Program-made: the position numbers and the translations under genes | The notes under the pieces: model-generated | Seen by the model: only the letters and a program-made list of their open reading frames with translations | The model's database searches: none | What the model was told of the DNA's origin: nothing | Source: an uncultured Rivularia sp. | Lineage (GTDB): Bacteria; Cyanobacteriota; Cyanobacteriia; Cyanobacteriales; Nostocaceae | Assembly (NCBI GenBank): GCA_963665115.1 | Contig: OY762007.1 | Span: 4,672,001-4,736,000, forward strand | Reading direction: 5' to 3' | Length of the DNA stretch: 64,000 nucleotides | Shown here: piece by piece, positions 3 through 45,128 of the stretch | Layout: each line of letters starts with the position of its first letter | Position numbering within the stretch: the first letter of the stretch is position 1

Positions 3-473
3 GATGAAAGCGATTGTCTAGCAGAAATTAGGCAATTAATAAGACGATTGCTGGTTAATTCTTATTGGATAAAAACTCAACATCCGGAACCCGATACTAA
101 AACCGGAACTTCTGTTAAACTTTTATATGATGAGTTGGGTTTTCCTTTTACAGTACAAACCGTTACCTTTACAAAAGGAACGCAATCCAATATTCATAAT
201 CACGGAATTTGGGGAATCGTCGCAGTATTAAAAGGACAAGAAAAGAATATTATTTGGAAGCGAAATCCTACCGCAGAACATCCAGAAAAAATTGAACCCG
301 TAGCAGAAATTATCTTAAATCCTGGGGATATTGTTAGTTTCGTACCGGGTGCAATTCATAGTGTCGAAGCAATGAGTGACGAACCAACCGTAACTTTTAA
401 CTTGTACGGCGAAACTAGATCGAAAGAACGTTTTGCATTTGACACGGTTCGTCATACTGCGAAGAATTTCTAA
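3..473 (+). CDS. Cupin / cysteine dioxygenase-like metal-binding protein (5'-truncated by window edge)
   Basis: Frame is open from position 3 (DESDCLAEIRQLIRRLLVN...). Cupin motifs HNHGIWG...G.E and PGDIVSF.PGAIHSV. Confidence 0.75.
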   Translation, partial: DESDCLAEIRQLIRRLLVNSYWIKTQHPEPDTKTGTSVKLLYDELGFPFTVQTVTFTKGTQSNIHNHGIWGIVAVLKGQEKNIIWKRNPTAEHPEKIEPVAEIILNPGDIVSFVPGAIHSVEAMSDEPTVTFNLYGETRSKERFAFDTVRHTAKNF

Positions 474-524
474 ACAATGAACAATTATCAATTATCAATG
501 AACAGTTGCTATTTCTTGTTTACT

Positions 525-572
525 AGCGAGCAAGATGCTTGTCCTGACGGACACGCTGCGCTAACGCACTAC
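525..572. repeat. REP-like hairpin (agcgagcaagatgctcgcactac family) interrupted by a 25-nt insert at 540-564
   Basis: Removing 540-564 restores exactly the hairpin at 31779-31801. Confidence 0.8.
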
Positions 573-671
573 GAAAATTAGTTTAAACGACTATAAATAA
601 TAACTAGTAACTAATAACTGATGATTGATAATTGGTCATTGATAATTGATAACTGATTAGGAGCTTTTATC

Positions 672-1112
672 GTGGCAAAGGTAATATTTTACGAAAAAAC
701 TGGCTGTCGAAATAATACTAAACAGAAAACATTATTAACAGCAGCCGGACATCAAGTAGAAGCGCATAATATCTTAGAAGAAAAATGGACTAAAGAGCGT
801 TTGCGCTGGTTTTTCAACAATCGTCCCGTAGCAGATTGGTTTAACCGTTCATCACCTAGAATCAAATCTGGTGAAATAAACCCCGAACAAGTAGATGCGG
901 AAACTGCTTTAGATTTAATGTTAGAGGAACCGTTATTAATTCGTCGTCCTTTAATTCAAGTCGGTTATCGCGGTGAAGTCGGTTTCGATACCCAAGTTAT
1001 TGAAAGTTGGATTGGCTTAACTCCTAAAGATGAGACTTTACAGGAAGTTAGTCAAAAATTGATGAGTACGGATTTACAAGGTTGCGCTCATAAGCACGAG
1101 CATCATCATTGA
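672..1112 (+). CDS. ArsC/Spx family protein, nitrogenase-associated type
   Basis: FYEKTGCRNN, WFNRSSPRIKSG and PLLIRRPL motifs. AGGAG SD upstream. Confidence 0.8.
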   Translation: MAKVIFYEKTGCRNNTKQKTLLTAAGHQVEAHNILEEKWTKERLRWFFNNRPVADWFNRSSPRIKSGEINPEQVDAETALDLMLEEPLLIRRPLIQVGYRGEVGFDTQVIESWIGLTPKDETLQEVSQKLMSTDLQGCAHKHEHHH

Positions 1113-1722: not shown

Positions 1723-2040
1723 GTTGGGTTGAGGAACGTTAACGGAGTGTGTCCCGGAGGACATAACCCAACATAATCTCGAAAACTAAACAAAATAATT
1801 CAAACAACTTCAATATTCAACACCCAACTAAATAATACTTTTCAACCAAAGCTCGTAGGTTGGGTTGAACGAAGAGAAACCCAACATTATTTAGAAAGCA
1901 AAACAAAACCATTAGAACAAATTTAATATTTAACACTTAACCAAATAATACGTTTCAACCAAAACCCGGATGTTGGGTTACGACGCTTCTATACTCTTCG
2001 TCAACAACAAATATAATTCGTGCGTCTAACCCAACCTACA
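1719..2040. repeat. Array of three GTAG-type REP-like units (gtaggttgggttga...aacccaac) with repeated linkers
   Basis: Direct units at 1719 and about 1855, and an inverted unit ending ...aacccaacctac near 2039. The two linkers share aatatt.aacac..aac.aaataatac.tttcaaccaaa. Confidence 0.75.
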
Positions 2041-2627
2041 AGAGGGCTACAATTTAAAAGTTATTTTTCGCAGAAAATTTCATTCCCCAGCGGATTGATG
2101 AGCTTTTTATAAATAAATATTTGCCAATCTGGCAGTTAATTTAGTGTAAATAATGATAGCATTTGCGCTTTAGTACTTATTGTTATCGTCAATCCTAACT
2201 AAACCTATAATGTCAAATTTATTTTACTTATCTATATATTCGGTTATGTATAAAAATATGTTGCGGGGTACGGTAATCGATAAATCTTGGAGCAATAACC
2301 ATTAAACTGCTTTTTTCACCAATTCTTAAAGAAATTTCCGCAAGGTTAATCCAAAATCCAAAATTGATGAATTTATATTGTTAAAATCAAACAAAAACTT
2401 ATTGCTGATGATTTGAGTACCAAATAATGGTAATAATTTATTTGAAACGTTAATTTTATTTTTAAAGTCTAAAATCGCTGTAATTATTGCGGTATTTAAC
2501 GCCAAAATTCATGGTTTAGGGTCAAAATTTTGCATTTTAGCTAAGTAATTTACCGGCATCACATTATCATTGCCATCTACCAATAATTTAAGTGGAAAAA
2601 TAATCTCTGCGTGAATGGGGAGCAAGT

Positions 2628-5189
2628 ATGAAAAGTGATATAGCAGTAGAGAAATTACGCCGATATAAGGAGTATGCGGAATCGGTGCTTCAAAGTCTGG
2701 AGTTGGTTTCGGAGAATCCACCACCTCAAGAGGATTGGGTGCCGACAAGTATCCATGAAAACATTCAGCGTCTGGTACAGTCTGCCCGCTCTACGGTAGA
2801 GTTGGCTTCTTCTCCTGTCAAAATTGGCGTAATGGGGGAGTTTAGTAGCGGTAAAACTTTACTAATTGGTAGCTTAATTGGTTTCGCGGATGCTTTACCT
2901 GTTAGCGAAACTCCTTCTACTGGGAACGTAACCGCGATTCATTTGGTGCAGCAACCTCAGTTACAGACGACGAAGGTTAATAAGTTTAAGGTACAGTATC
3001 TTTCCCATGAAGGGGTAAAAGAATGTTTGGGTTTTATGCTCAAGGTGGTGGAAGGTAGGGCAAAGCTGGCGGAAGTACCCGCAGCTCCTTTAGCCACTTT
3101 AAAAAGTTTGTACCCCACAACTTTTGTCGATACCAATGGAATTTTAACTTGGTGCGAACAAGCTTGGAATCAAACCCAAAGTTTGGAATTACGGGCTTTG
3201 TTACGGGAAGTGGTGGTATTTGTTCGTACTTATAGCGCTTACGGGAAAGATATCTGCGGTAGAAGTTACGAAATTGACCATTTTACGGCGAATAAGGGGT
3301 TGAGATTGGCCGATCCCCCAATGAATATTTTGGAGTTAAAATTTCGGGAATTACCCGCATCTCCGAAGCGTTGGGAGACTTTCGCGCAGCCTTCAGCGAG
3401 GGATTTAAATAATAGTTTCTCGTTGATTCGACGGATCGATATTACGGTTGAAGTAGCAAAACAAATCTGGGATTTATCAGGGTTACAGGGGACGAATGAG
3501 TTTGTATTATTAGATTTTCCCGGTTTGGGTGCGGCTGATTCGGGTATCAGAGATACTTTTTTATCGCTGCGGGAATTGACTGAGGTACAAACTATTTTAC
3601 TGTTACTCAACGGTAGATATCCGGGGGGAGTGACTGCTGCAAAAATTCGCAGTATGTTGGAACGGGATAAGGGACAAGATTTAAGAGATCGGATTATTGT
3701 TGCTATGGGAAGGTTTAATCAGCTTCCTTTAACAAGTCGCGATATTTTGACGATGGATGAGGTTTTGGAGGAACCTTTATTATCGGAAGAAGCTGTTTTA
3801 GAAAAGCTGAGAATTCTGCATTTAACTCTTGCTAGTGCAAGTAATTTGACGACTGAGAAGAAAAATATTGTTTTGCTATCGCAGCTTTACGGATTAACAA
3901 AGCAAGCACAGTATTCTTCGTTAATACAAGTTTGTTCCCCAGAGTTTTTACCAGATTTAGAAAAGCCAAATCAAGCTGATGAAGTTCAGTTACGGGAAAA
4001 ATGGCGCAAGTTGGGGGAGATGTTACCGCAGTCAAGTACTTTGCACAAACAGTTGAGCGATTATGCAGAAGATGGTGGCATAAGTCGATTGCGATCGCTA
4101 CTTAAAGATCATGTGGGGCAGCATGGAATGAAGCAGCTTTTGGAAGATACCCAAAGGGCTGCGGAAACGGTGATGAAGGAGCAAAATAATTTAAAAGCTG
4201 TATTGGAAGAGATTCCGGCTTATATTCCGGTGGTGGAAAATCCGGCTTTTATGGAGTTACGGGAAAAAATTGAGAATTTAGTAACGACATATCGGCATTT
4301 TCAGGAAGATTTAGAAAAACAGCCGATGTTAAAAAATCGCACTGGATCTACTTTGAGCGATGTTGTCAAAGATGAATTAACCAACAAAATATTTTTTGAG
4401 TGGAGCGAGTGGACTTTATTATTCGATCGGACTAAAAACGGGACAATTACGTTTACTAAAAATGCCAGCATCTTTGAGGAAGACGAAGAGGAAGACGCAA
4501 TTCCCACTCAAAGCGACGATTTTTATAATTCCTTCGTTAAAACCGTTAACGAAATGCAATCTTTTGCTCATGAAAGAACTGCTGAAACGGTAAAAGATTT
4601 ATTCAACAAATTAGCCGTAGAAGTACAGTTAGAAAGAAACAAAATTAAAGAAATTATCCAACCGCAATTAGAGCAGCGAATTCAGGAGAAGTTTGGCAAG
4701 AGAGAAACTCGTTTATATAGATATCTTTTACGAGCGATCGATCCAACTAATAAATGGCAAAACTTAATTATTCAACACAGCGGATTGGCGAGTAGTGCAG
4801 TACCGATAAATGCCGATAGTTTATTTCCTTTAGCAAGAAAAGATGCACAACATCAAAAAGGACAGATATTCGATTGGAGTCCTGACAAACAATTTTCAGT
4901 ACCACCAAGACCATTTAATCATCAAATTGCCGTGTTGAGATTGCGGGATGAAATTACTGCTAGTGCTGGGTTACATTTGATTCAATACGTCAGCGAAATC
5001 ACCAAACAAGTTAAAGGTTCCTTTTCAATGGCATTGAAGGAGATAGTTGATAGTTTACAAGAACTTTTAAAATCCAAACACGAGCCTTTATTGAGATATA
5101 TAGCTTCTGCTGAGGAAACAACTTCTGCTTCTACACCAGAGTGGCTGGATACTATGAAGCGGATTACTGTTATTTCTTATCCGGAGTGA
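2628..5189 (+). CDS. Dynamin-like (SrfC-like) large GTPase, 853 aa
   Basis: G1 GEFSSGKT, G2-like LPVSETPSTG, G3 LLDFPG, variant G4 MGRFNQ, long helical C-terminal region. Confidence 0.75.
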   Translation: MKSDIAVEKLRRYKEYAESVLQSLELVSENPPPQEDWVPTSIHENIQRLVQSARSTVELASSPVKIGVMGEFSSGKTLLIGSLIGFADALPVSETPSTGNVTAIHLVQQPQLQTTKVNKFKVQYLSHEGVKECLGFMLKVVEGRAKLAEVPAAPLATLKSLYPTTFVDTNGILTWCEQAWNQTQSLELRALLREVVVFVRTYSAYGKDICGRSYEIDHFTANKGLRLADPPMNILELKFRELPASPKRWETFAQPSARDLNNSFSLIRRIDITVEVAKQIWDLSGLQGTNEFVLLDFPGLGAADSGIRDTFLSLRELTEVQTILLLLNGRYPGGVTAAKIRSMLERDKGQDLRDRIIVAMGRFNQLPLTSRDILTMDEVLEEPLLSEEAVLEKLRILHLTLASASNLTTEKKNIVLLSQLYGLTKQAQYSSLIQVCSPEFLPDLEKPNQADEVQLREKWRKLGEMLPQSSTLHKQLSDYAEDGGISRLRSLLKDHVGQHGMKQLLEDTQRAAETVMKEQNNLKAVLEEIPAYIPVVENPAFMELREKIENLVTTYRHFQEDLEKQPMLKNRTGSTLSDVVKDELTNKIFFEWSEWTLLFDRTKNGTITFTKNASIFEEDEEEDAIPTQSDDFYNSFVKTVNEMQSFAHERTAETVKDLFNKLAVEVQLERNKIKEIIQPQLEQRIQEKFGKRETRLYRYLLRAIDPTNKWQNLIIQHSGLASSAVPINADSLFPLARKDAQHQKGQIFDWSPDKQFSVPPRPFNHQIAVLRLRDEITASAGLHLIQYVSEITKQVKGSFSMALKEIVDSLQELLKSKHEPLLRYIASAEETTSASTPEWLDTMKRITVISYPE
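4091..4098. repeat. HIP1 octamer GCGATCGC (also at 7142, 26281, 40031, 51501, 60391, 63011 and elsewhere)
   Basis: Recurs throughout the window. Hallmark of many cyanobacteria. Confidence 0.9.
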
Positions 5190-5250
5190 AAAATTATCAA
5201 TTATCAATTATCAATTATCAATTAACAGGTTGGAATTCATAACTATAAGA

Positions 5251-5275
5251 AGACGTAGCACTGCTACGTCTCTAC
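5251..5275. repeat. REP-like palindrome gtagagacgtagca-N-tgctacgtctctac (variants at 16301, 20080, 34718, 37776, 42220)
   Basis: Six similar intergenic palindromes read directly from the sequence. Confidence 0.85.
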
Positions 5276-5410
5276 ATTAAAACTATTAATTCCTAACTCT
5301 TTTACCGGAAGATTACTGATTAATAAAACCGCAGAGACGCAGAGGAAACAGAGATAAGAAGTTACAGAGATATAGCCACTAACAACTAACAACTAACTCC
5401 CAGATAAAAA

Positions 5411-8400
5411 ATGCCTGTCAAAATAGAACTTTTCAGTCGTTATCAATTACGTACTAAAGAAACCGATCCGCTGCTTTTATTATTGCCGGTAGTTGAAATA
5501 AAACCAGTTGATAGTCCTAATTCTCCGTTTATTTCTTCGATTGAAATTAAGGTTTTAGGACAGCGTTCTGAGTTAGCAAAACAAATCGAATCGGCTTATA
5601 GAAGCGTTAGTTTTAGTACCGATAGATTACTTCGACTTACTTCTCCCCAGCGGTTGAGACAAAATGATTGTATTTGGACTCCACCTTTACCCAAGGGAAT
5701 TGATTTGACTTTGCGGGTGACTGCTGAGTATTTCGATTCCGATGATACGGGTACGGCAATTTTAGCGGTGAAAAAAACTGCTGCTGCTGATTGCAATATT
5801 TGGACTTTTGCTGAGGAAAATGCTCGCTGGAGAAATCCTGAACTTACAGAAGAAATTACCAATCAAAATATGATTAGCGAAACCCCTATTCTTAATCACT
5901 CTTCGTCGGTTATTTCGCAAAAGGAAAAATCTGAGATAACTTATCCCGGTTGGTTTGCGATTGATTTTGGTACTTCTAATTCTACGGTGACGCTTTACGA
6001 TCCAAAGGTGATTGTCACTCCCCATACTTTACCCAGCGAACAAGAGGAAAAGTTAAGCGAAAAATTAGCCTTTTGGTTGACGCAGCGCCCTGTTGATGAG
6101 GTACCAGGGATCGGTCGCGATGTTTGGGATGCTGAGTGGCAAAAGTTATTCTCACACCTCAGTAAAAACTTGGATAATTTTAATCCGGCGAATTTACAGC
6201 TTTTGCGCGGAGAACAGCTTTTAGAAGCAATTCGCGAAATAGAAATCTGTCTGAGCAAGCGTTTGGGCTGGTTCCGTCGTGCTGCTAGTAAAAGATTAAA
6301 TAAAATTTATCATCAGGTTTTTCGGGTTCCAGCTTTGGAGTGGCAAAGTTTGTTACCCGTTGAGTTGGATAAGGATAGACGGTTAAATGAAATTCCTTCG
6401 GAGTTGGAGGTGATTAATTTAGAGCCTTCTTTACCATCTCAAGATCCAGGAAAGGTAAAAGTGATGTTGGGAGAGCAAGCTTATCAGCATAGATTGGATG
6501 CGATTAAGCAAGGTGAAGGAATTGACGGACGATTTTTGCATTCCCCCAAACGTTATTTTGGTCAAGAGCGCAGTTTTGATATAAGTTTGGATGGTAAGGA
6601 AGATACTATTCAAGTAAATCAACTTTTGCAGGCTGCTTACGCTGAGTTGATTGAATTAACCCAGAAATATCGTCAGCGCTATCCCGGAAAATGCAGCGAT
6701 GGTAACTTTTATCGCGCAGTTTTGACATATCCGACAATTGCTTCACCATTTATCCGTCGAGAAATCGAAAGTTTAGTTAAGAAATTGGGTATCGAAGACG
6801 TACAAATGGCTTACGATGAAGCCGTTTCCGCAGCTATCTTCTTTTTATGGCAAGAATTTGGTGGCGATTTAAATTTAGGAATAGAATCTTTTAAAAGCCG
6901 TTGTCGTCACGATGGCAATAAATGGTGGCAAAATGTTTTAGTCTTAGATATTGGTGGGGGAACCACCGATTTAGCCTTAATTCGACTGACTTTAGAAGAA
7001 ATCGATCCTTTTGAACCTACCGAAGATAGAGGTGATGGAGGTCGATATTATAAACTTACACCAAAACTGTTGGGATCTTCGGGTCATTTACAGTTGGGTG
7101 GGGAATTGATTTCGCTGCGATTATTCTTGTTGTTAAAAGTGGCGATCGCCGATTCTCTATTAAGTGCTGTTGCGGATGATATTTTAGCTAAAGAAGTATT
7201 GAAAGTACAGCCAGAAGAATTAAACGAACGCTTTTTAGATAACGGTAAATATCGTAAAGGTTCGCTGTTAGCTTGTGTTGATAAAGAAATTCGCGAAGGT
7301 GATACCTACAAAGAAGCATTAAACGACGCTGAAAAAGTTTTACCTACCCGTTGGAAAAATAGTTCATCCCGTTCTCAAACATTTTACGATCTTTGGGAAC
7401 ACGCTGAAAATGCCAAGTTAGCCTTGGGACAAAAACGTTTTCTGGTAAACGATATCCCAGAAGCAATATTTGTTTTAAACGGACAGCAAATATCAGAATT
7501 ACTTTCCCAAAACGATATTCAACTACCCACAGACGTACTTGATAAAATTAGCGTCACCTTAACAGGAGAGCAATTCGAGAAAGCAGCTTCCCCGGTAATT
7601 CAAGAAGCCATCGGTATAGCTTCTGGCTTAATTGAAAATGCTTTTAAGTCAAAGTTCGTCAGCGAAATTAGTTTTATTGAACAAATACAACAAGACGAAG
7701 CGCAAACTAAAAAAGAACAAGTAGACTGGTTAATTTTATCCGGCAAAACCTGTAATTTAGAATTGGTAGAGCGGGAACTTTACCGAGTATTTAGTAAATC
7801 CGATTACTTTGTCTGGAACGAAGAAAGAGTTACCTTTGAACCAGAATATACCAAATTAGCCACATCAGCCGGAGCTTGCTTTGCTGAAAAGCTGCGTCAA
7901 TTAAGCTTCTCTCCCCAAGAGTCAAAAGATTTACTTCGGAAAGGCGCAAATCAACTTTATATAGATGTAAAAAACTTATTTTACTTTTTACCTTGCTCCT
8001 TCGTTAGAGAAGTTATTGGTGGAAGTCCAGTTCCAATTTTCCACGCGGGACAAGAACTTTACCAACTCAAAGCCGAAGAAGGAATGGCGAAATTACGCAG
8101 CAATTGGTTGGGAATGCAGTTAACCAATAATATCAGAAGACAAGACTTTGAAAAAATGAAGTTACAGCTATGGGGAAGTTTTAACGGTGACGCTTTAATG
8201 AAAAAATTAGGAATCACCGAAGACGACTTTAAAAATAATATCAAAGTTCAATTTGAAATCAATCAAAAGTTGGACATTGACTTATTACTTTGTCGCGGAA
8301 TTCCTCATTATTTAATACCTGCAAATATTCCCAACATCGACGCAGCAAAAGCAATTGGGAATCAAGAATTAATTACCGATGAATCACAAGTAATTTGCGA

Positions 8401-8857
8401 CATAGCCGTTAACGTCGTCGAAGCAGCAAACGCATTAAAAACAGACGCACATACAGTATTATATAAAGCCGGTAAAGACTATAGCAAAGAATTAAGAGTA
8501 TTCCGCTATGATAACGACACAAACCAACCGCAAACCATCGGATTAATAGCCGAACTTCCACCATTTCCAGCCAGCGGAAAACATACATTTTACTTCCAAT
8601 TCCGCAACCCCCAATCTAATACATGGGAATTAATTGGAGAATTACCACAACCACCAGTTAACAGTGAATATCCATGTCGTTATTACGTTACTTTAGACTT
8701 TAAAGGAACATTGCGCGTACATCCCTTTGAAGTACCATATTGGACATCTACAAATCCAGAATTTCTCAAACAAGAAGGATGTATATTTCGGGATACTTTA
8801 CAACCACAGTCTACTAATGTTGAAGCCGAAAGAGATCCGTTTTGTGGAATGCATTAG
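5411..8857 (+). CDS. Large Hsp70/actin-fold (SrfB-like) ATPase, 1148 aa
   Basis: Phosphate-1 FAIDFGTSNS, LTYPT, connect YDEAVSAA, phosphate-2 LVLDIGGGTTD, LGGELI, adenosine-like ILSGKTCNL. Confidence 0.8.
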   Translation: MPVKIELFSRYQLRTKETDPLLLLLPVVEIKPVDSPNSPFISSIEIKVLGQRSELAKQIESAYRSVSFSTDRLLRLTSPQRLRQNDCIWTPPLPKGIDLTLRVTAEYFDSDDTGTAILAVKKTAAADCNIWTFAEENARWRNPELTEEITNQNMISETPILNHSSSVISQKEKSEITYPGWFAIDFGTSNSTVTLYDPKVIVTPHTLPSEQEEKLSEKLAFWLTQRPVDEVPGIGRDVWDAEWQKLFSHLSKNLDNFNPANLQLLRGEQLLEAIREIEICLSKRLGWFRRAASKRLNKIYHQVFRVPALEWQSLLPVELDKDRRLNEIPSELEVINLEPSLPSQDPGKVKVMLGEQAYQHRLDAIKQGEGIDGRFLHSPKRYFGQERSFDISLDGKEDTIQVNQLLQAAYAELIELTQKYRQRYPGKCSDGNFYRAVLTYPTIASPFIRREIESLVKKLGIEDVQMAYDEAVSAAIFFLWQEFGGDLNLGIESFKSRCRHDGNKWWQNVLVLDIGGGTTDLALIRLTLEEIDPFEPTEDRGDGGRYYKLTPKLLGSSGHLQLGGELISLRLFLLLKVAIADSLLSAVADDILAKEVLKVQPEELNERFLDNGKYRKGSLLACVDKEIREGDTYKEALNDAEKVLPTRWKNSSSRSQTFYDLWEHAENAKLALGQKRFLVNDIPEAIFVLNGQQISELLSQNDIQLPTDVLDKISVTLTGEQFEKAASPVIQEAIGIASGLIENAFKSKFVSEISFIEQIQQDEAQTKKEQVDWLILSGKTCNLELVERELYRVFSKSDYFVWNEERVTFEPEYTKLATSAGACFAEKLRQLSFSPQESKDLLRKGANQLYIDVKNLFYFLPCSFVREVIGGSPVPIFHAGQELYQLKAEEGMAKLRSNWLGMQLTNNIRRQDFEKMKLQLWGSFNGDALMKKLGITEDDFKNNIKVQFEINQKLDIDLLLCRGIPHYLIPANIPNIDAAKAIGNQELITDESQVICDIAVNVVEAANALKTDAHTVLYKAGKDYSKELRVFRYDNDTNQPQTIGLIAELPPFPASGKHTFYFQFRNPQSNTWELIGELPQPPVNSEYPCRYYVTLDFKGTLRVHPFEVPYWTSTNPEFLKQEGCIFRDTLQPQSTNVEAERDPFCGMH

Positions 8858-9043: not shown

Positions 9044-9574
9044 TTATTGCTCTTCCCAGAAACCTCTTTTAAATGGCTCGAAATCTAATGCTTCATCTTT
9101 TGAAACACCAAACTTTTCCATAAAAGAGATGTAAGCATTTTCTAGCTTGTTTTTATCGGATTCGATTATAGAAGCGATTTGCCTTTTTGGTTTTTTGATG
9201 TATCCGAATAAATCGTCGATTTCACCAGCCCAACATTTGTAAATAATAAACATCCATTCATGCTCTTGTTTTATTCCAATTTTCTTTGCAATATTATTTA
9301 CTTCTCCGATAGATGGATTTTTACTTACGTATTGTGGAATTGATATTGCAGAGCCGATAAATGGAGAATTTACCTTTTTAACTGTATATAGCGCTTCCCG
9401 GTCTATCGAGGTACATCTTAAAACCTCACCCCCAACCCCTCTCCTTATTAAGGAGAGGGGAGATAAAGAAAGCTGTACTTCACCAGATTGAGAAACGCTA
9501 TAAGGAATATCAAGAGGTACTTCTTCGGAAATCTGAAATTCTTTGACAAATATTCCAGCAAATTGATAGGTCAT
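9044..9574 (-). CDS. Hypothetical protein carrying an in-frame 38-codon MITE insertion
   Basis: Likely start MTYQFAG at 9574. ORF stays open across the element at 9387-9502. Confidence 0.65.
   Translation of the reverse strand: MTYQFAGIFVKEFQISEEVPLDIPYSVSQSGEVQLSLSPLSLIRRGVGGEVLRCTSIDREALYTVKKVNSPFIGSAISIPQYVSKNPSIGEVNNIAKKIGIKQEHEWMFIIYKCWAGEIDDLFGYIKKPKRQIASIIESDKNKLENAYISFMEKFGVSKDEALDFEPFKRGFWEEQ
9387..9502. mobile_element. MITE-like element, 29-bp imperfect TIRs, TA at both ends
   Basis: Left tatagcgcttcccggtctatcgaggtaca vs reverse complement of right tatagcgtttctcaatctggtgaagtaca (21/29). Internal hairpin cccctctccttattaaggagagggg. Confidence 0.8.
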
Positions 9575-9869
9575 TTCCACAAATGGTAAAATTGCAGTAG
9601 AAAAAGCGAACAAGAAGAAATCCTGTCCGCATATTATCAGAAGCACCTCTGTGATTACCAAGAACATCTTACATGATTCTTACAGTACCTATGTACTAAA
9701 AAACAAATGTATAAGTTAATTTTGCGCGATCGCCCGAATCGTCATAAATTAAACTTATGCGTTTCTCGTTCTCAGAGGTAGATTAACGTATCTAAGAATA
9801 TTTTTTTCTTAATTGCCCAAAATAGAAGTAAAAGAAGAATTGAGAAAAAGCGAATAAATACAATCTAAA

Positions 9870-10779
9870 ATGCACAACCGAAAGCAGGATAGCACCTCAG
9901 ATCAATTTGTAAATCCATTAGATATTTTAGAAAAGAAACCTACAATATCTCAAAGCTCGGTTTGTGTAAATGAAGATTTAATAGTTAATTATCGCCACGA
10001 TTTGCCAGGGAAATTAGAATTACCATTGGGATTAAGCCATCACTTACTAACTTTTTTTATAACTGATAATAAAAGACAAATAACACATATTAATGGTACT
10101 GGAGAGTATGACGGACAGATGAATCAAGGAGAATTTTATCTCTGTCCCCGCAGAAGTTTCTGGTTTTACTAGTTGGGAAGTAGTTGACGAAACTTTGCAT
10201 ATAGTTATTAAACCATCGTTAATACGTCAAGTAGCGATAGAAACTGAATCTCTTAATCCAGATAGAATCGAACTGCTACCAGTTTTAAAAAATTACGATT
10301 TGCAAATAGAGCAACTAGCTAAGTTATTATTTTCAGAAATGCAAAACGATGGCTTGGGAGGAAAGCTGTATTTAGAATCTCTTACTAATGTTTTAGTAAT
10401 TCATTTGTTGCGTAATTATTGTGTATTTGAACCGATATTCCGCAAGCAGAGTAAAGGATTAGCATCTTCTAAGCTGCGTCAAATACTTGATTATATTAAT
10501 GAATACTTAGACCAAGATTTGAGCTTAAAAATAATGGCTAAAGAAGTTGGGATGAGTTATGCCTATTTTGCCGATCAATTTAAACAAGCTATGGGAATTC
10601 CCCCACATCAATATGTTAACCAGCAGCGAATAGAAAAAGCCAAACAGTTACTCAAAGAGCATAAATATACAATAGCAGAAATAGCATTAGAATCTGGCTT
10701 ATCCAGTCAAAGTCATTTAAATAAACTATTTCGTAAATATGTAGGAACTACCCCGAAGAATTATCAAAAGCAACTATAA
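9870..10779 (+). CDS. AraC family transcriptional regulator (frameshifted as sequenced: one extra base at or near CCCC 10146-10149)
   Basis: C-terminal AraC double HTH (FKQAMGIPPHQY...SQSHLNKLFRKYVGTTP). Deleting one C joins 9870..10172 to 10195..10779 (CPAEVSGFTSWEVVDETLH). Confidence 0.85.
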
Positions 10780-28634: not shown

Positions 28635-30296
28635 TTATTTACCGAAAAGTCTTTTCCACAAAGGGTTTTTCTTATTCTTTTTTTTCTGCATAATTTCTAG
28701 ACTTTTACGAGTTGTTTTAGTGTCGGGATGATTTTCACCTAAGATGCGTTTTCTCAATTCCAAAGCTTGGATATAGAGGGGTTCAGCCTCTTCGTACTTT
28801 CCTTGGGAATCGTAGAGTAATGCTAAATTATTCAAATTGCTTGCTGTTTCGGGATGATTTTCTCCGAGTAGCTGTTTTCTTAACTCCAAAGCTTGGATAT
28901 AAAGGGGTTCAGCTTCTTCGTGCTTTCTTTGGGATTTGTAGAGATTAGCTAAATTGTTCAAACTCCTTGCAGTGTGGGGATGATTAACTCCGAGTAGCTG
29001 TTTTCTTAACTCCAAAGCTTGGATATGAAGGGGTTCAGCTTCTTCGTACTTTCCTTGGTGATAGTAGAGAGAAGCTAAATTGTTCAAACTGGTTGCAGTG
29101 TCGGGATGATTTTCTCCGAGTAGCTGTTTTCTTAACTCCAAAACTTGAATATGAAGGAGTTCAGCTTCTTTACACTTTCCGATGCGTTCGTAGAGATTAG
29201 CTAAATTGTTCAAACTCCTTGCAGTGAGGGGATGATTTTCTCCGAGTAGCTGTTTTCTTAACTCCAAAGCTTGGATATGAAGGGGTTCAGCTTCTTCGTA
29301 CTTTCCTTGCTGATAGTAAAGAGAAGCTAAATTGTTCAAACTGGTTGCAGTGTCGGGATGATTTTCTCCGAGTAGTTGTTTTCTTAACTCCAAAGCTTGG
29401 ATATAAAGGGGTTCAAGTTTTTCGTACTTTCCTTGGGAATTGTAGAGATTAGCTAAATTGTTTAAGCTACGAGCTAATTCTTCTTCTAAACCTAATTCCG
29501 TCTGCAATTCAACCGCTTTAGAATAATACTCAACCGCTAAACCCTGCTCTTTCTGATAATCCCCAGCTTCACCTCTATCTAATCTTCTTTTATAAATATC
29601 CGCCAATTCAACATACAAAGTCGCTAATTTCTTATCTTCCTTCCCATTTTCCCTTTCTATCTGCTCAATCAACCTCTGCAAATCTTCAACGGATAAAGAA
29701 TAGGATTTATCATCATCAAATTCATCTAATTCCGTACCTTGAAAATTCAAACGTATCTGCTCTAATTCTCTAACGTCAACAAAATTTTTCGCTTTTGAAA
29801 CAAAGTGAAATACACCACTGCGCCAACTCCAAAAGTCTGGTGCTTTCTTTATTAAGTTAACTAAAAGTTGATTTGTCACCCATAGTACAATTGCAAACGG
29901 ATATTCTCGCAGTGCTTCTCTTGTCCACTGTAAGTAACCAAAAAATTTCTCTTGTTCCGATTGCTCTTCTCCGAATTTTAGAAAAAATAATTGCTGTACT
30001 CCAGTTACTGTAATTACTGCTGGTTGAGAATTACGTAAATATTCTTCTTGCTCTACTAACTGATTAATTGCAGCATTTAAACTTGGTTCGCCACGAGCTA
30101 AAGTAGTGCGATAATGACGAAAGTGTGGCTGAAGTTCGGCTTCGTATTTGGCAATAATTTCATCGCGAAAGGTTCCATTGTCGCAAACTGCAATCAACAA
30201 ACTTAATTTTCCTTCTCCTGCTTCAATGGAAACGATTAAATCGTCGTAAGCATCTTGATTTTGCTCGTCTGGATTAACTGATGATTTAGTTACCAT
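28635..30296 (-). CDS. TPR protein with an N-terminal degenerate NTPase-like domain
   Basis: Six 42-aa repeats (SLNNLA.LY..QGKYEEAEPL.IQALELRKQLLGENHP). N-terminal LQWTREALREYPFAIVLW...APDFWSWRSG. Confidence 0.88.
   Translation of the reverse strand: MVTKSSVNPDEQNQDAYDDLIVSIEAGEGKLSLLIAVCDNGTFRDEIIAKYEAELQPHFRHYRTTLARGEPSLNAAINQLVEQEEYLRNSQPAVITVTGVQQLFFLKFGEEQSEQEKFFGYLQWTREALREYPFAIVLWVTNQLLVNLIKKAPDFWSWRSGVFHFVSKAKNFVDVRELEQIRLNFQGTELDEFDDDKSYSLSVEDLQRLIEQIERENGKEDKKLATLYVELADIYKRRLDRGEAGDYQKEQGLAVEYYSKAVELQTELGLEEELARSLNNLANLYNSQGKYEKLEPLYIQALELRKQLLGENHPDTATSLNNLASLYYQQGKYEEAEPLHIQALELRKQLLGENHPLTARSLNNLANLYERIGKCKEAELLHIQVLELRKQLLGENHPDTATSLNNLASLYYHQGKYEEAEPLHIQALELRKQLLGVNHPHTARSLNNLANLYKSQRKHEEAEPLYIQALELRKQLLGENHPETASNLNNLALLYDSQGKYEEAEPLYIQALELRKRILGENHPDTKTTRKSLEIMQKKKNKKNPLWKRLFGK
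28720..29475 (-). repeat. About six tandem 126-bp TPR-encoding repeats
   Basis: Near-identical DNA units (...gggatgattttctccgagtagctgttttcttaactccaaagcttgg...) at 126-bp spacing. Confidence 0.85.
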
Positions 30297-31579
30297 TAAA
30301 TTAAACCTTCTTCGCGCAACAATTCCACAACAATCGGATGCACGTCATACCAGTTTTGCCGGTTGCGATATTCTAAAACGTAAAGTCCGTGCAGCAAATC
30401 TAAGAATTCTTGTTGTTTAGGGTCTTCGGGTTTAAAGTTATCGTATGTGGTTTTTAATATTTCATAATCTGATTTACCTAAAGGCAAAGCAAAGTCATTG
30501 CGGATATTATTAATTGCAGTTTCTAAAATTGCATCGTCAATTACTACTTTATTTCCAGCTTTGCGTCTAATCAAGCGCAAGCAAATACGACAACATTCAT
30601 TAGCAACACGAATTAATTCACGTAAAACACCACCGCTATTTAAAACAATATTTTCTGCGGTTTTTTCTATAATTAATTCCGATGCAATTCGCTTTTTGAG
30701 GATTTCGCAGAGTATCCCCGAAGTTTCAGCGCGTGGTTGAGTATTCGCAATACGACTTTGACCTTTAGTAAACAATTTCAAAACAGGCATTACTACAATT
30801 AGATCGTTAGTTTCCGTCACAATAATTGTTCTTAATACCGTTTCGCGCATCGCGGCAATTGGGATAGTATAAATAATTCTAAATCCCGGCAAACAAAGAG
30901 CTTTAATATTATCCTTATAAATTGTATTGACGACAGCTAGATCTAGTTTATCTAAATCATCAATAATAACTAGAATCTCTTGATTTACCGAATATTGAAT
31001 TGCAGCAGCTATGATATTCAATTGAGCAACTAAATCTGAAATTTTCCGTTCAAACTCTTGCTTAATTTCATAACGAATCGTCGAATCAACTTTTAACTTA
31101 GTGGTAATTGATTTAAATATTGAGCCTTTTGCTTCTGTTTCCGTTTGAATTCCTGCTGCTTCCGTGCGTGTATGTTTAGCAAACCATCGATTTAAAGTAT
31201 CTTTTGTAGATTGGGGGATTTCAACTTGACGCGCTTCTGCTTCTAACATTAAATTGACACCAATCGAAAATAAGATATTGATGTGATTTACATCCGACAT
31301 CTCAATTGTTTCGGCAATGGAAAATAAAACTACAAAATATCTATCTCTTAACCGCTTGCTAAATTCAGCCAGCAAAGTAGATTTACCACATCCCCGATGT
31401 CCTGAAAAAACAATCTTACCGTCACTGTTAGGACTATCTTCGGTTAACTGTTCTAATTCTTCGATTGTTTCTTCACCATAATCAACCCGGAATTGCTGCA
31501 AATCTTTTTCTTCCACTAGGGGAAGTAATTCCAAATTACGGTAAGCTTCTTGAAACGATTTTAATAAATCTCCAGACAT
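30296..31579 (-). CDS. P-loop ATPase (STAND/AAA-like), translationally coupled to the TPR gene
   Basis: Walker A GHRGCGKS, Walker B IIDDLDK, SGGVLRELIR, C-terminal WYDVHP. Stop overlaps the next ATG (TAATG). Confidence 0.88.
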   Translation of the reverse strand: MSGDLLKSFQEAYRNLELLPLVEEKDLQQFRVDYGEETIEELEQLTEDSPNSDGKIVFSGHRGCGKSTLLAEFSKRLRDRYFVVLFSIAETIEMSDVNHINILFSIGVNLMLEAEARQVEIPQSTKDTLNRWFAKHTRTEAAGIQTETEAKGSIFKSITTKLKVDSTIRYEIKQEFERKISDLVAQLNIIAAAIQYSVNQEILVIIDDLDKLDLAVVNTIYKDNIKALCLPGFRIIYTIPIAAMRETVLRTIIVTETNDLIVVMPVLKLFTKGQSRIANTQPRAETSGILCEILKKRIASELIIEKTAENIVLNSGGVLRELIRVANECCRICLRLIRRKAGNKVVIDDAILETAINNIRNDFALPLGKSDYEILKTTYDNFKPEDPKQQEFLDLLHGLYVLEYRNRQNWYDVHPIVVELLREEGLI

Positions 31580-42296: not shown

Positions 42297-45128
42297 TCAC
42301 CCCATCTCCCTCTCCAGCAATCGATTCAAATTACTTTTCACAGTTTTAGTGTAAAAATGTTCTTCCCCTAAAACAGAAAGGCAAATATCTAAAGCTTGTT
42401 GAAAAATCGGTTCGGCTTTTTGGCTTTGTTCAAGACATTGATACATTTGCGCTAAATTATTCAGAGTTGTTGCTGTGTGGGGATGCATTTCTCCAAAGTT
42501 TTGTTGACAAATTTTTAATGCTTGCTCTAGAAGGGGCTTAGCTTTCTCGTATTTTCCCATGCAGCAGTACAAGGCAGCCAAGCTATTAAGACTATTAGCG
42601 GTTATGGGGTGTTGTTGTCCAAATATTTGAGAACGAATTTGGAGAGCTTGTTTAAAATACACTTCTGAGGTGTAATACCGTTTTTGGGTTTTGTAAATTA
42701 GTCCGAGGTTGTGGAAACACTCAGCGGTTTGAGGATGTTGTTTGCTTAGAACTTTACAATTAATCTGTAGGGCTTGTTGTAATAATTGTTCTGAAAAAGC
42801 AAAATTACCTTGTTGATAAAGTAAAGAGCCGAGTTTACTAAGCTTTTGGGCAGCAGCAGGGGTTTCTTCAAAATTACTAATTTCCATGTTGGCATGGCGG
42901 CTTTGTTTAAGAAAGTCTACTGTATCGTATTCGCCACGGATGCGAGAGAAATTTATTATAGCAGTATTCAGTTGTAGAGTTTGAGGATGCGTCAAACCAA
43001 GGTTAATTTCGGCAGTTTCTAAAGCTAATTGGTACTCTTCATAGGCTTGCTGATATGTGAGATAACCCATGTTTTGGTAGATATTGCCTAGCATTCCATG
43101 ACAATAAATAGTTAAAGGATGAGTTGCAGAATCTATATCCTTTAAAGTCTGTTTAAAAAGCTTTTGCGCTAAATCATAATTTTTGTGATGAGCATTTAAC
43201 CAAGCAATTGTAAACTTTGTTTGAGCAATTTGAATTCGGGCATTTTGTTGAGATTCAAATATCTCTAAGGCTTTTTGACTCAACTTTAATGCTTCAGAGT
43301 AGCTTCCTTTAATAACAGCAATTTCTGTTTGGATATTTAACGCTTCGGCTATTTCAATCGAATTGTGACTTAAATAATTAGTGCTGAGATTTAAGGCTTT
43401 TTTTGCAGCGCTCTCGGCATCCGAAGTGCGTTGAAGTTTTAAATAACAAGCCGCAAGCTGTAAATGTAGTCTTGATGCAATATCTTGAAGATTTTCAGTT
43501 TGCCCTAACTTTTCTGCTGTTTGTAAGGCAATCACAGCTTGTTGATAATCTCCCAAAGCTAATAAAGATTTGCCTAATAGACTAAAAGTCAAAGCATTTT
43601 GTTGGTACTTAAGCAAAAATTGCAGTGCAAAAACACTAAACTCATGTCTACCTGCTTGAGAAACTAGTGTTATTTGTTCCAAAAGCCAATCAGTTAATTT
43701 TTGCTGCTGTTGACTCTTGAAACCATGTTCGATTAACTTTACGAACATACTCAACTGTGATGGCGATTGCCGATATTTTGCTTGATAGTACTCAAACAAC
43801 CAACTATGAACAGATTGCTGTAAATTATCTGGTTGATTTTTGGATAAATACTCTTCCACAAGTGGATGCAAGCGTAATCCTTCTGAATTTAATTCCACAA
43901 AAGGCGATTTGACAATTTTGTGAAACAGTTTCCTCCAACAATCGCATATCCAATTGCAGCTAGAGATTTCAAATTGACTCATCAATTTTGCAAACAGCAC
44001 TTCATCCCAACTGCGACAGTTAGATAAAATCTGCCAAATTCTTCGTTCATACCAATCCCAAGCTGCATTGAGTTTGGGTAAAATTTCTTGTAGATTGCGG
44101 GCAAAATTTTTTACTTGTGGAGCTTTTTGCTTTGCTAGATTTAGGTAAGTTTCTACTCCTAAATGTAGATACAGAGGGATACCTTCAGATGCTTGAATAA
44201 TAAGTGGTGAATACGAATTCTCAACGTTGAATTTTTGTATAATTGCTTGAGATTCGGCATCAGTCAAATTTTGGATCGGGATATTTTGGGTATTACTTGT
44301 TAGATTAACCGGCTTTTGTGCAAAAATTACCCATAATATAGAAGGATTGAGTTGAATTAAATCCTTCAACCAGTTGCACTCAGCTTCAACATTAGGTAAA
44401 AAATCGTAATTATCAATGAAAACTACTACTCTTTGACGAGTTTTTTCTAAGTGTAGCTGTAAATCTCGTGCTAAAAAGATAGGTAGTAATTCTTGAATAT
44501 CTTTTAAACTTGCACACTTTTTTAACTCTTGTAAATCATGACTACCTTTTAGCCTCCACCATTTACGTATTTCTCCCGTTTGCTGGATAAAAAACCAGTT
44601 CAAACAAGCAAATATTTTACTTCCAACTGATAATGACTTCCATTCATCCTGAGTTTGATAGTTATTTAAACACTTAGTAGCTTCCAATAATAATGGAAAT
44701 TGGTATAGCCCTTTCTTGACTATTTCAATAATTTGTAAAATGTCTATTTTTTGCACTATTGCTTCTGATAAATGTATCGCTTCAGAAGCATTTGCTAAAG
44801 CATCATACAGCAGGTAAGCAATATCAAAGCTACTCAAATCAAAATCATTTTTAACCAAATCCTCGCGTAATTTAAGTAAAGCCGCGTTCACTGGATTTGA
44901 TATTACACAATCGTTAAGTATTTCTCCCCCATTAACAACTGTGCTATTCGAGTAATATTGTCTTATCTTTTTGTACAAATACTTAGAAAGACTGGATTTT
45001 CCAATTCCTGGTTGCCCGTAAAGAATTAGCACATTAGTAGAATTACTTTTACTATTTATAATTTCAACTAATAATTCTTCTGTGTACTTTTCCCTATCAA
45101 TCCTTTCTTCGTACTTTCGCTGCAACAT
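42297..45128 (-). CDS. STAND-class NTPase with C-terminal TPR repeats (NLR-like)
   Basis: Walker A GQPGIGKS, Walker B VVFIDNYD, SEGIPLYL (GxP), LRLHPLV, TPRs (HP.TA.SLN.LA). Confidence 0.85.
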   Translation of the reverse strand: MLQRKYEERIDREKYTEELLVEIINSKSNSTNVLILYGQPGIGKSSLSKYLYKKIRQYYSNSTVVNGGEILNDCVISNPVNAALLKLREDLVKNDFDLSSFDIAYLLYDALANASEAIHLSEAIVQKIDILQIIEIVKKGLYQFPLLLEATKCLNNYQTQDEWKSLSVGSKIFACLNWFFIQQTGEIRKWWRLKGSHDLQELKKCASLKDIQELLPIFLARDLQLHLEKTRQRVVVFIDNYDFLPNVEAECNWLKDLIQLNPSILWVIFAQKPVNLTSNTQNIPIQNLTDAESQAIIQKFNVENSYSPLIIQASEGIPLYLHLGVETYLNLAKQKAPQVKNFARNLQEILPKLNAAWDWYERRIWQILSNCRSWDEVLFAKLMSQFEISSCNWICDCWRKLFHKIVKSPFVELNSEGLRLHPLVEEYLSKNQPDNLQQSVHSWLFEYYQAKYRQSPSQLSMFVKLIEHGFKSQQQQKLTDWLLEQITLVSQAGRHEFSVFALQFLLKYQQNALTFSLLGKSLLALGDYQQAVIALQTAEKLGQTENLQDIASRLHLQLAACYLKLQRTSDAESAAKKALNLSTNYLSHNSIEIAEALNIQTEIAVIKGSYSEALKLSQKALEIFESQQNARIQIAQTKFTIAWLNAHHKNYDLAQKLFKQTLKDIDSATHPLTIYCHGMLGNIYQNMGYLTYQQAYEEYQLALETAEINLGLTHPQTLQLNTAIINFSRIRGEYDTVDFLKQSRHANMEISNFEETPAAAQKLSKLGSLLYQQGNFAFSEQLLQQALQINCKVLSKQHPQTAECFHNLGLIYKTQKRYYTSEVYFKQALQIRSQIFGQQHPITANSLNSLAALYCCMGKYEKAKPLLEQALKICQQNFGEMHPHTATTLNNLAQMYQCLEQSQKAEPIFQQALDICLSVLGEEHFYTKTVKSNLNRLLEREMG

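What the first reader, a model, noticed from the sequence alone, without database searches (positions are those of the whole stretch)
2628..8857. Dynamin-like GTPase plus giant Hsp70/actin-fold ATPase: candidate uncharacterised two-NTPase system
Seen: two large co-oriented genes separated only by repeats, with about 590 bp of free upstream DNA and a convergent gene downstream, so they look like a self-contained unit. The 853-aa protein has G1 GEFSSGKT, G3 DFPG, a non-canonical G4 (GRFN rather than NKxD), a long insertion in the G domain, a helical tail and no obvious TM segment. The 1148-aa protein keeps the Hsp70/actin nucleotide motifs (DFGTSNS, DEAVSAA, DIGGGTTD) but has large insertions, an extra N-terminal domain of about 180 aa, and a C-terminus unlike the DnaK substrate-binding domain. 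No DnaJ or GrpE gene is nearby. Established: bacterial dynamin-like proteins remodel membranes and some act in anti-phage defence; the poorly understood enterobacterial SrfB/SrfC pair has a comparable make-up. Inference: a dedicated ATPase/GTPase machine for membrane remodelling or defence in filamentous cyanobacteria, not a housekeeping chaperone.
Basis: partly seen in the sequence, partly recalled or inferred. Interest (0 to 1): 0.75.

Follow-up and report, generated by a model that had tools for sequence, protein, structure and literature searches.

The report
Dynamin, lidless Hsp70, displaced third partner
The two genes are the dynamin-like GTPase and giant Hsp70-type ATPase of an already catalogued but untested three-gene unit found in almost every genome of this family of filamentous, nitrogen-fixing cyanobacteria; the third gene sits 190 kb away in this genome, and the unit likely works as a membrane-shaping polymer with its own chaperone.

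Summary
The 853-aa protein is a dynamin-like GTPase (model matches SynDLP, Z 21). A 383-aa third gene, normally next in line, lies 190 kb away here.

The pair belongs to the 'chaperone clade' of Jilly et al. 2018 and probably equals alr1146-alr1148 of Anabaena PCC 7120, induced by nitrogen step-down. My literature searches found no functional test. This scan noted it three times before on other genomes.

Found here: the ATPase is in 244 of 250 family genomes and 0 of 383 other class genomes sampled. The three genes are lost or broken together, while nif genes stayed intact in the six such genomes checked. Family copies form two separate lineages. One relative carries a TIR fusion. Flanks show no defence-island enrichment. 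A GrpE-like role for the third protein is only a weak lead. Best reading: a chaperone-controlled dynamin for membrane remodelling (0.4); rival: domesticated defence system (0.3).

The parts
2628..5189 (+). Dynamin-like GTPase, 853 aa, no TM segment; chaperone-clade cyanobacterial DLP
   Evidence: Pfam Dynamin_N E 1.3e-6, above cut-off; Foldseek SynDLP E 4e-12; VIA Z 21.0 to the SynDLP minimal G domain, 426 aligned, rmsd 8.3
2835..2858 (+). G1 P-loop GEFSSGKT (aa 70-77)
   Evidence: G70, E71, G75 and K76 invariant in 39 rows
3708..3719 (+). G4-position motif GRFN (aa 361-364); GRF[N/D] in the family
   Evidence: reading it as G4 rests on its place after a strand in the model and on recalled dynamin motifs
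5190..5410 (.). Intergenic gap filled with genome-wide short tandem and palindromic repeats; not specific to the system
5411..8857 (+). Giant Hsp70-type ATPase, 1148 aa
   Evidence: Profile hit to DnaK E 2.4e-12; Foldseek DnaK/BiP E 4e-16; VIA Z 23.8-24.4
5411..5803 (+). N-terminal beta-rich domain (aa 1-131), dispensable in some genera
   Evidence: model; absent in 11 of 36 genomes; fold not searched on its own
5942..7900 (+). Hsp70 nucleotide-binding domain with large inserts (aa 178-830)
   Evidence: D185 115/116, K380 115/116, E470 116/116, D513 116/116, D520 116/116, G778 116/116
7949..8854 (+). Hydrophobic linker (LYIDV, aa 849-853), predicted lidless substrate-binding-type beta domain, extra beta-rich region, conserved C-terminal DPF[CS]GxH
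   Evidence: boundaries approximate; the linker equivalence is by position and a recalled DnaK motif
2043..2627 (+). Upstream non-coding region with a GGGGAG ribosome-binding-like site before the ATG; no promoter identified

Best explanation
The two window genes, with a third gene displaced 190 kb away, form a conserved three-part unit in which the dynamin-like GTPase likely polymerises on inner membranes, the lidless Hsp70-type ATPase would act as its private assembly or disassembly factor, and the third protein possibly serves as nucleotide-exchange or adaptor subunit. Shown: folds by model, intact NTP-binding residues, gene order, and joint retention and loss. Inferred: membrane binding, that the GTPase is the client of the ATPase, and the role of the third protein. 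The physiological use is likely membrane remodelling or repair during starvation-linked differentiation or stress in free-living filaments. It is helpful but not required for nitrogen fixation, and may have been domesticated from a mobile system of multicellular bacteria.
For: GTPase model matches SynDLP, mitofusin, BDLP and IniA above small GTPases. ATPase model matches ATP-state BiP/Sse1 including a beta substrate domain, with catalytic residues near-invariant in 116 rows. ATPase in 244 of 250 and third gene in 242 of 250 family genomes; the six without the ATPase also lack the third gene and a true GTPase orthologue. All three genes are broken together in G297 and G306; in G306 the third gene is unlinked and the flanking genes are intact. 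The same order occurs in metagenome locus L130. Single copy in G000. The probable orthologues alr1146/7/8 rise 9.1-, 2.5- and 8.7-fold 12 h after nitrogen step-down (PMC4365693 Table 6). Weak GrpE leads: Atlas features of the C-terminal part of a third-protein homologue gave MIEAP 0.81 and GrpE 0.77, and one GTPase homologue (P0070) carries an N-terminal GrpE-head-like stretch.
Against: No experiment exists. Nothing here shows that any two of the proteins touch. HHalign, HMMER, Pfam and PDB profile searches gave no GrpE link for the third protein. The Atlas scores are under 0.9, and P0070 scores only E 0.28 among the session's proteins. No J-domain gene appeared among the conserved neighbours, so ATPase activation is unexplained. 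No membrane anchor was found, and G4 is often Asn rather than Asp. A TIR fusion in P0277 and sporadic presence outside the family fit defence at least as well. The alr tags were not verified by sequence.
Confidence: 0.4

Rival explanations
1. A fixed anti-phage or anti-invader system of filamentous bacteria: the Hsp70-type ATPase senses a foreign protein and triggers the dynamin to seal or destroy membranes, limiting spread along the filament.
For: A TIR domain is fused to homologue P0277 (TIR_2 E 4e-21). Some GTPase homologues have variable N-terminal fusions. Homologues occur in Actinomadura and Actinoplanes and in oscillatorialean genera. There are two lineages in the family, with one-clade rejected at p-AU 1.6e-5. 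The genes decay in two small genomes. The GTPase weakly matches PADLOC LeoA at the P-loop (28 of 39 rows). B. subtilis DynA acts in phage defence (PMC12998192, search listing only).
Against: 98% retention, mostly single copy, is unusual for defence genes (established knowledge). No flank enrichment: 17 of 101 against 10 of 33. No plasmid hit among 72,556 records with two queries. No effector domain was recognised in the family members scanned. Induced by nitrogen step-down.
Confidence: 0.3
2. A core heterocyst morphogenesis machine, for example for thylakoid rearrangement or neck formation, required for aerobic nitrogen fixation.
For: Near-exclusive to the family in the genome samples; listed among heterocyst-former core genes and induced by nitrogen step-down (PMC4365693).
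Against: G147 and G297 keep intact nitrogenase-type genes, and G306, G311, G318 and G332 keep intact NifH, although all six lack or have broken the unit. G400 has no NifH-grade hit yet keeps an intact GTPase and third gene, with one frameshift in the ATPase. Homologues occur in non-heterocystous genera. Whether those strains make normal heterocysts was not checkable.
Confidence: 0.13
3. The ATPase is a specialised chaperone or scaffold for some other client and is merely co-regulated with the dynamin, or it forms actin-like filaments itself.
For: MreB, BeeR and FtsA follow the Hsp70s in the fold search (Z 18.9-21.8); operon neighbours need not bind.
Against: Hsp70s rank first and only they extend into the substrate domain; joint loss and joint decay of all three genes.
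Confidence: 0.1
4. A cyanobacterial counterpart of the SrfABC operon, acting against eukaryotes.
For: Pfam SrfB is the best family hit in 40 of 40 ATPases; public annotations say 'virulence factor SrfB'. SrfABC was reported cytotoxic (PMC6950479, passages).
Against: The hit covers about 70 of 992 profile positions around the phosphate motif and is below the cut-off for the window protein; no Srf-type family hit the GTPase or the third protein.
Confidence: 0.05

Closest known systems
'Chaperone clade' of cyanobacterial dynamin-like proteins (Jilly et al. 2018, PMC5827413)
   Same: DLP with a DnaK-domain gene downstream. The listed strains hold my loci. The listed downstream 'four helix bundle protein' of M. 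testarum BC008_02845 matches the 148-aa 23S_rRNA_IVP ORF between the two genes in L055.
   Different: The passages and supplement seen do not mention the third gene, the near-universal presence in the family, the two lineages or the lidless Hsp70 layout. The P-loop extension here is TLLIGSLI, not the INALL type the paper describes.
alr1146-alr1148 of Anabaena PCC 7120 (Simm et al. 2015, PMC4365693; Gupta and Mathews 2010, PMC2823733)
   Same: Three adjacent unknown genes in the heterocyst-former core set; alr1146 is 847 aa; outside homologues in Streptomyces and Frankia; induced by nitrogen step-down.
   Different: Listed as unknown function with no fold assigned. The equivalence is inferred from length, order and distribution, not from a sequence comparison. 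My tree puts the Anabaena/Nostoc-type copies in a different lineage (about 50% identity) from the window copy.
SynDLP, Nostoc BDLP, IniA, mitofusin
   Same: Large G domain with helical neck and stalk.
   Different: About 10-14% identity, long G-domain insert, GRF[N/D] at G4, no TM paddle detected; partnered with an Hsp70 rather than a second DLP or KGK protein.
DnaK/BiP/Sse1 Hsp70 chaperones
   Same: NBD catalytic set, hydrophobic linker, predicted beta substrate domain in ATP-like docking.
   Different: No helical lid in the model, about 290 extra residues in the NBD, extra N- and C-terminal beta regions, no J-protein neighbour.
SrfABC of enterobacteria
   Same: Three-gene operon; weak Pfam SrfB match.
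   Different: Match short and below the cut-off; no Srf family hit for the other two proteins.

Membership tests
Chaperone-clade cBDLP (Jilly 2018) | Dynamin-like gene with a DnaK-domain gene downstream | tested here: met
Chaperone-clade cBDLP (Jilly 2018) | Orthology to the listed members | tested here: met
   Homologues at 66-75% identity in listed strains (Calothrix 336/3, M. testarum, S. tolypothrichoides); L055 insert matches the listed downstream gene; third-gene homologue Riv7116_6534 lies near the listed Riv7116_6519. Locus tags were not matched by sequence.
Dynamin superfamily | Large G domain plus helical neck and stalk | tested here: met
   model pLDDT 81, pTM 0.59
Dynamin superfamily | G1-G3 motifs intact | tested here: met
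   K76, T98 and D296 invariant in 39 rows
Dynamin superfamily | Canonical G4 aspartate (guanine specificity) | tested here: not met
   Asn in the window protein; 30 N and 9 D of 39. Nucleotide specificity is open; this does not remove it from the fold family.
Dynamin superfamily | Membrane binding, self-assembly, stimulated GTPase | not testable with these tools
   needs biochemistry
Hsp70 family | Actin-like NBD with Hsp70 catalytic residues | tested here: met
Hsp70 family | Beta substrate-binding domain | tested here: met
   Predicted model only: 462 residues aligned to BiP 27-527
Canonical DnaK | Helical lid after the substrate domain; Pfam HSP70 over cut-off | tested here: not met
   No long helix after residue 943 in the model; HSP70 model hits 6 of 40 members weakly and not the window protein
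SrfB/SrfC | Full-length match to SrfB above cut-off | tested here: not met
   22.5 bits against 27.1, residues 461-529 only
SrfB/SrfC | GTPase and third protein match Srf families | tested here: inconclusive
   No such family listed for 39 GTPases or 49 third proteins; no direct profile or structure comparison with Srf proteins was made
GrpE nucleotide-exchange factors (third protein, outside the window) | Coiled coil plus C-terminal beta head homologous to GrpE | tested here: inconclusive
   Atlas GrpE 0.77 and MIEAP 0.81; HHalign probability 4% or less with a spurious segment, HMMER none; no structure model was available
Known anti-phage systems (PADLOC 2.0, Eleos/Leo) | All components match the system's models over their length | tested here: not met
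   Only P-loop-sized LeoA match (E 0.0019) and PDC-M61B (E 0.026)

The most novel reading that the evidence does not exclude
A self-contained dynamin / lidless Hsp70 / GrpE-like trio, in which a private chaperone cycle switches a bacterial dynamin polymer, arose among multicellular bacteria as a mobile defence module (TIR and other fusions in relatives) and was fixed in heterocystous cyanobacteria in two interchangeable lineages as a membrane-remodelling machine.
Probability: 0.2. Interest if true: 0.8.

Novelty: new member of a known kind. Interest (0 to 1): 0.47.

Why it matters
Few gene sets are both near-universal in heterocyst-forming cyanobacteria and still without a function. This one encodes two large NTPases with recognisable folds, so clean mutants (K76, D185/E470) and a triple knockout in a laboratory Anabaena or Nostoc strain are easy to design. 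If the best reading holds, it would be a bacterial case of a chaperone dedicated to a dynamin polymer. If the rival holds, it would be an unusually stable immune system of multicellular bacteria. The locus itself is an ordinary member of a catalogued group, which caps the score.

Tried and rejected
Complex prediction of the ATPase NBD (176-835) with the third protein (92-383): no verdict, score 0.00 against a mark of 0.32; it counts neither way. GTPase-ATPase co-folding was not run (size limit, one job).

GrpE link by sequence: HHalign with 20 GrpE rows, HMMER of the C-terminal profile against 9,288 genome ORFs, Pfam of 49 members and a PDB profile search were all negative.

Single-sequence PDB, NCBIfam and PADLOC searches were uninformative. 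Plasmid searches gave no match. The nine viral-contig hits were short, weak matches (E 2e-6 or higher).

Promoter and terminator counts were at chance level, and no GTAN8TAC (NtcA-type, recalled) site lies upstream. RNA-library contigs of relatives at about 91-93% identity cover both genes in two studies, but no silent control was laid, so expression is not shown.

Two-match genomes G363 and G328 proved to hold one gene each; G449, G388 and G400 are frameshifts; G361 is a contig break and G511 a contig end plus frameshifts; G416 is a true double and G335 has a decayed second copy. My first guess at the Anabaena tags (all1729/all1731) found no support.

Literature searches for SrfB+SrfC+dynamin (0 papers), dynamin-like+HSP70+conflict systems, GrpE+MIEAP+dynamin+HSP70, Hsp70+dynamin+anti-phage, alr1146-8 (2 papers) and bacterial dynamin-like+Nostoc+DnaK found no functional study. 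The library lacks most subscription papers, and bioRxiv supplements were closed.
Full report
OBSERVATION. The two ORFs, their motifs, the repeat-filled gap and the convergent gene are as described. Each gene is single-copy in the window's genome G000 (8.69 Mb, one contig). The closest named relatives (90-97% identity) are labelled mostly Rivularia or Calothrix.

THE GTPASE. Pfam gives Dynamin_N above cut-off, in 39 of 39 aligned homologues at E 0.01 or better. The AlphaFold2 model (pLDDT 81, pTM 0.59) has an N-terminal helical pair, a G domain at about 63-500 with a long insert, and a long helical stalk. Foldseek ranks SynDLP (E 4e-12), BDLP, dynamin, the Campylobacter pair and IniA on top. 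VIA-align gives SynDLP Z 21.0 (426 aligned, rmsd 8.3), mitofusin 2 Z 17.6 and BDLP Z 15.8, above small GTPases at about 12. K76, T98 and D296 are invariant. The G4 position reads GRF[N/D]: 30 N and 9 D in 39 rows. Among 120 homologues, those at 60% identity or more had 66 N and 2 D, the rest 30 D, 19 N and 3 other. From recalled knowledge, Asp-to-Asn at G4 loosens guanine specificity in small GTPases, so the preferred nucleotide is open. No TM-like segment was found.

THE ATPASE. A profile of 116 homologues finds DnaK at E 2.4e-12 with the four motif blocks in register. The model (pLDDT 81, pTM 0.72) matches DnaK and BiP by Foldseek (E 4e-16). By VIA-align it matches Sse1 (Z 24.4, 468 aligned, rmsd 6.5) and ATP-bound BiP (Z 23.8, 462 aligned, rmsd 4.1, BiP 27-527), against 352-363 residues for the next four Hsp70-family chains. 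The aligned range runs to residue 1133, which suggests that a late strand completes it around an insert; I could not view that alignment. No helical lid follows. Catalytic positions D185, K380, E470, D513, D520, K669 and G778 are kept in 115-116 of 116 rows, and a hydrophobic linker at 849-853 is kept. The N-terminal 131 residues are beta-rich and absent in 11 of 36 family genomes. The 'SrfB' label in databases comes from a 70-residue match below cut-off.

A THIRD GENE. Clustering neighbours of 67 loci showed one more conserved family, about 380 aa, downstream in 53 loci and in 27 of 29 more distant loci. In G000 it is intact but 190 kb away. It has no Pfam or PDB match. The Atlas places it with unnamed cyanobacterial and actinobacterial clusters. 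By eye I suspected a GrpE-like C-terminus and noted this before testing. Sequence tests failed. The Atlas search of the C-terminal part of homologue P0485 returned MIEAP (0.81) and a GrpE-domain cluster (0.77, rank 13), both below the 0.9 mark. One GTPase homologue has a GrpE-head-like N-terminal stretch. This stays a lead.

DISTRIBUTION. The GTPase lies upstream in 58 of 67 loci; the nine others end at a contig edge within 3 kb. In a phylum sample the ATPase was in 36 of 37 own-family genomes and 0 of 263 others. The GTPase orthologue was in the same 36 and always adjacent; nine non-family genomes gave only weak P-loop hits. In a family sample the ATPase was in 244 of 250 and the third gene in 242 of 250. 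The six genomes without the ATPase lack the third gene and a true GTPase too. In a class sample the ATPase was in 17 of 17 family and 0 of 383 other genomes. Named homologues do exist in Oscillatoria, Kamptonema, Okeania, Trichodesmium and Hormoscilla, so outside the family it is rare, not absent. A profile search found 272 representatives at E 1e-30 or better. Of ten looked up, two clusters are actinomycetes (Actinomadura/Spirillospora, Actinoplanes) and the rest carry no taxon. Metagenome locus L130 has all three genes in order (E 1e-67 and 4e-43 to the GTPase and third-gene profiles). These counts are samples, and kin are not independent.

LOSSES. G297 (4.8 Mb) and G306 (4.9 Mb) have all three genes broken. 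In G306 the third gene is 3.4 Mb away and also broken, while most flanking genes of the pair read intact; in G297 neighbours decay as well. G147 and G297 keep intact nitrogenase-type genes; G306, G311, G318 and G332 keep intact NifH. G319 and G334 were not checked for nif. G400 has no NifH-grade hit but keeps the GTPase and third gene, with one frameshift in the ATPase that may be an assembly error. The unit is therefore not tied strictly to nitrogen fixation.

TWO LINEAGES. Trees of the ATPase place Rivularia/Calothrix/Fischerella/Scytonema-type copies (with the window) beside Okeania/Trichodesmium, and Nostoc/Anabaena-type copies beside an Aerosakkonemataceae copy. Holding the twelve chosen family rows together is rejected (delta lnL 276, p-AU 1.6e-5). 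Caveats: I named the groups after seeing the first tree, it is a quick tree of 21 rows, and two long outgroup rows were dropped. G416 carries both types. Old duplication with differential loss and replacement by transfer both fit; no donor is claimed.

DEFENCE TEST. 17 of 101 flanking genes, taken from 36 of the 67 loci with one per family, hit PADLOC at 1e-5, mostly generic kinases, methyltransferases and TnpB-like proteins, against 10 of 33 control window genes. A few true defence-type neighbours occur (type I restriction in L056, AriA/GajA-like in L058). There were no plasmid matches. In favour of defence: a TIR fusion in 1 of the 19 long or distant ATPase homologues scanned.

LITERATURE. 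Jilly et al. 2018 (PMC5827413; passages and the whole supplement) define a chaperone clade of 11 DLPs with a DnaK-domain gene downstream, and speculate on protein sorting during membrane remodelling. Membership is supported as listed in the membership table. Simm et al. 2015 (PMC4365693; section 13 read, supplement searched without hits) list alr1146-alr1148 as heterocyst-former core genes of unknown function, induced 9.1/2.5/8.7-fold at 12 h and 5.3/1.8/7.7-fold at 21 h, with alr1147 missing in Nostoc azollae and homologues in Streptomyces and Frankia. Gupta and Mathews 2010 (PMC2823733; passage) give alr1146 as 847 aa. The alr tags and the Jilly paper came to me from earlier notes of this scan; I checked the papers but not the tag-to-sequence match. 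A 2023 review (PMC9950537; passages) has no occurrence of 'chaperone' or 'clade'. Chloroplast Hsc70 control of VIPP1 oligomers (PMC12798727) and DynA in phage defence (PMC12998192) were seen as search listings only and serve as analogies. PMC2821919 (sections 10, 12, passages), PMC6950479 (passages) and bioRxiv 10.64898/2026.10.19.760177 (passages) added nothing specific.

VERDICT. Real, a member of a catalogued clade, function untested. It works like a dynamin with an Hsp70 partner; it is not a canonical DnaK, and its SrfB match fails the family cut-off. I favour a chaperone-controlled membrane-remodelling unit (0.4) over a fixed defence system (0.3), an essential heterocyst machine (0.13), an unrelated chaperone or filament role (0.1) and an Srf-like toxin (0.05). 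Interest 0.47.

Noticed in passing
G000:C1:4486117-4487268 (-) = L098:8118-9269: The displaced third gene sits between a leucine-rich-repeat gene and the same downstream genes that follow it in close relatives where it is still a few kb from the pair. This suggests a rearrangement that split the operon. It is also unlinked in G071 and G306.
   Followed up: yes
P0277 (unnamed protein): TIR domain fused to the N-terminus of a full-length homologue of the Hsp70-type ATPase; genomic context not obtained.
   Followed up: partly
   Followed up: partly
L130:310-11697: Metagenome locus: DUF4407 membrane gene, unknown 527-aa gene, the three-gene unit with overlapping stop and start, then a second, more conventional Hsp70-like gene.
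   Followed up: partly
L042:4256-7588 and L065: An 1110-aa TPR-rich gene with a P-loop-like motif is inserted on the opposite strand between the GTPase and the ATPase in two Scytonema genomes.
   Followed up: no
G416:C1:2.70 Mb (L148) and 3.71 Mb: One genome carries both lineages; the second operon is complete and only 44-48% identical to the window proteins.
   Followed up: partly
window 28635-31579 (-): AAA_16-type ATPase ORF (427 aa) overlapping by one base a TPR-repeat ORF (553 aa); may be one STAND-like gene in two pieces. Another TPR protein of 943 aa lies at 42297-45128.
   Followed up: no
window 9870-10779 (+): AraC-family regulator apparently split into a 100-aa and a 194-aa ORF; relatives have about 303 aa.
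   Followed up: partly
window 1765-1979: Two 102-nt direct repeats (80% alike, 113 nt apart) with a third inverted arm at 2023-2042, upstream of the GTPase; probably dispersed cyanobacterial repeats.
   Followed up: no
window 48-1112: Cupin and ArsC-like genes upstream, conserved beside the unit in Rivularia-like relatives; similar gene types are listed as nitrogen-fixation associated in PMC2821919 Table 5 (orthology not checked).
   Followed up: no
window 9044-9667 (-): Convergent ORF with no Pfam hit; homologues in five related loci are about 138 aa, and the extra N-terminal part overlaps a repeat, so the start is probably later.
   Followed up: partly
G000:C1:8400855-8401253 (L100): A second, divergent GrpE-family gene in the genome (28.7 bits); several family genomes have up to five GrpE-like matches.
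   Followed up: no
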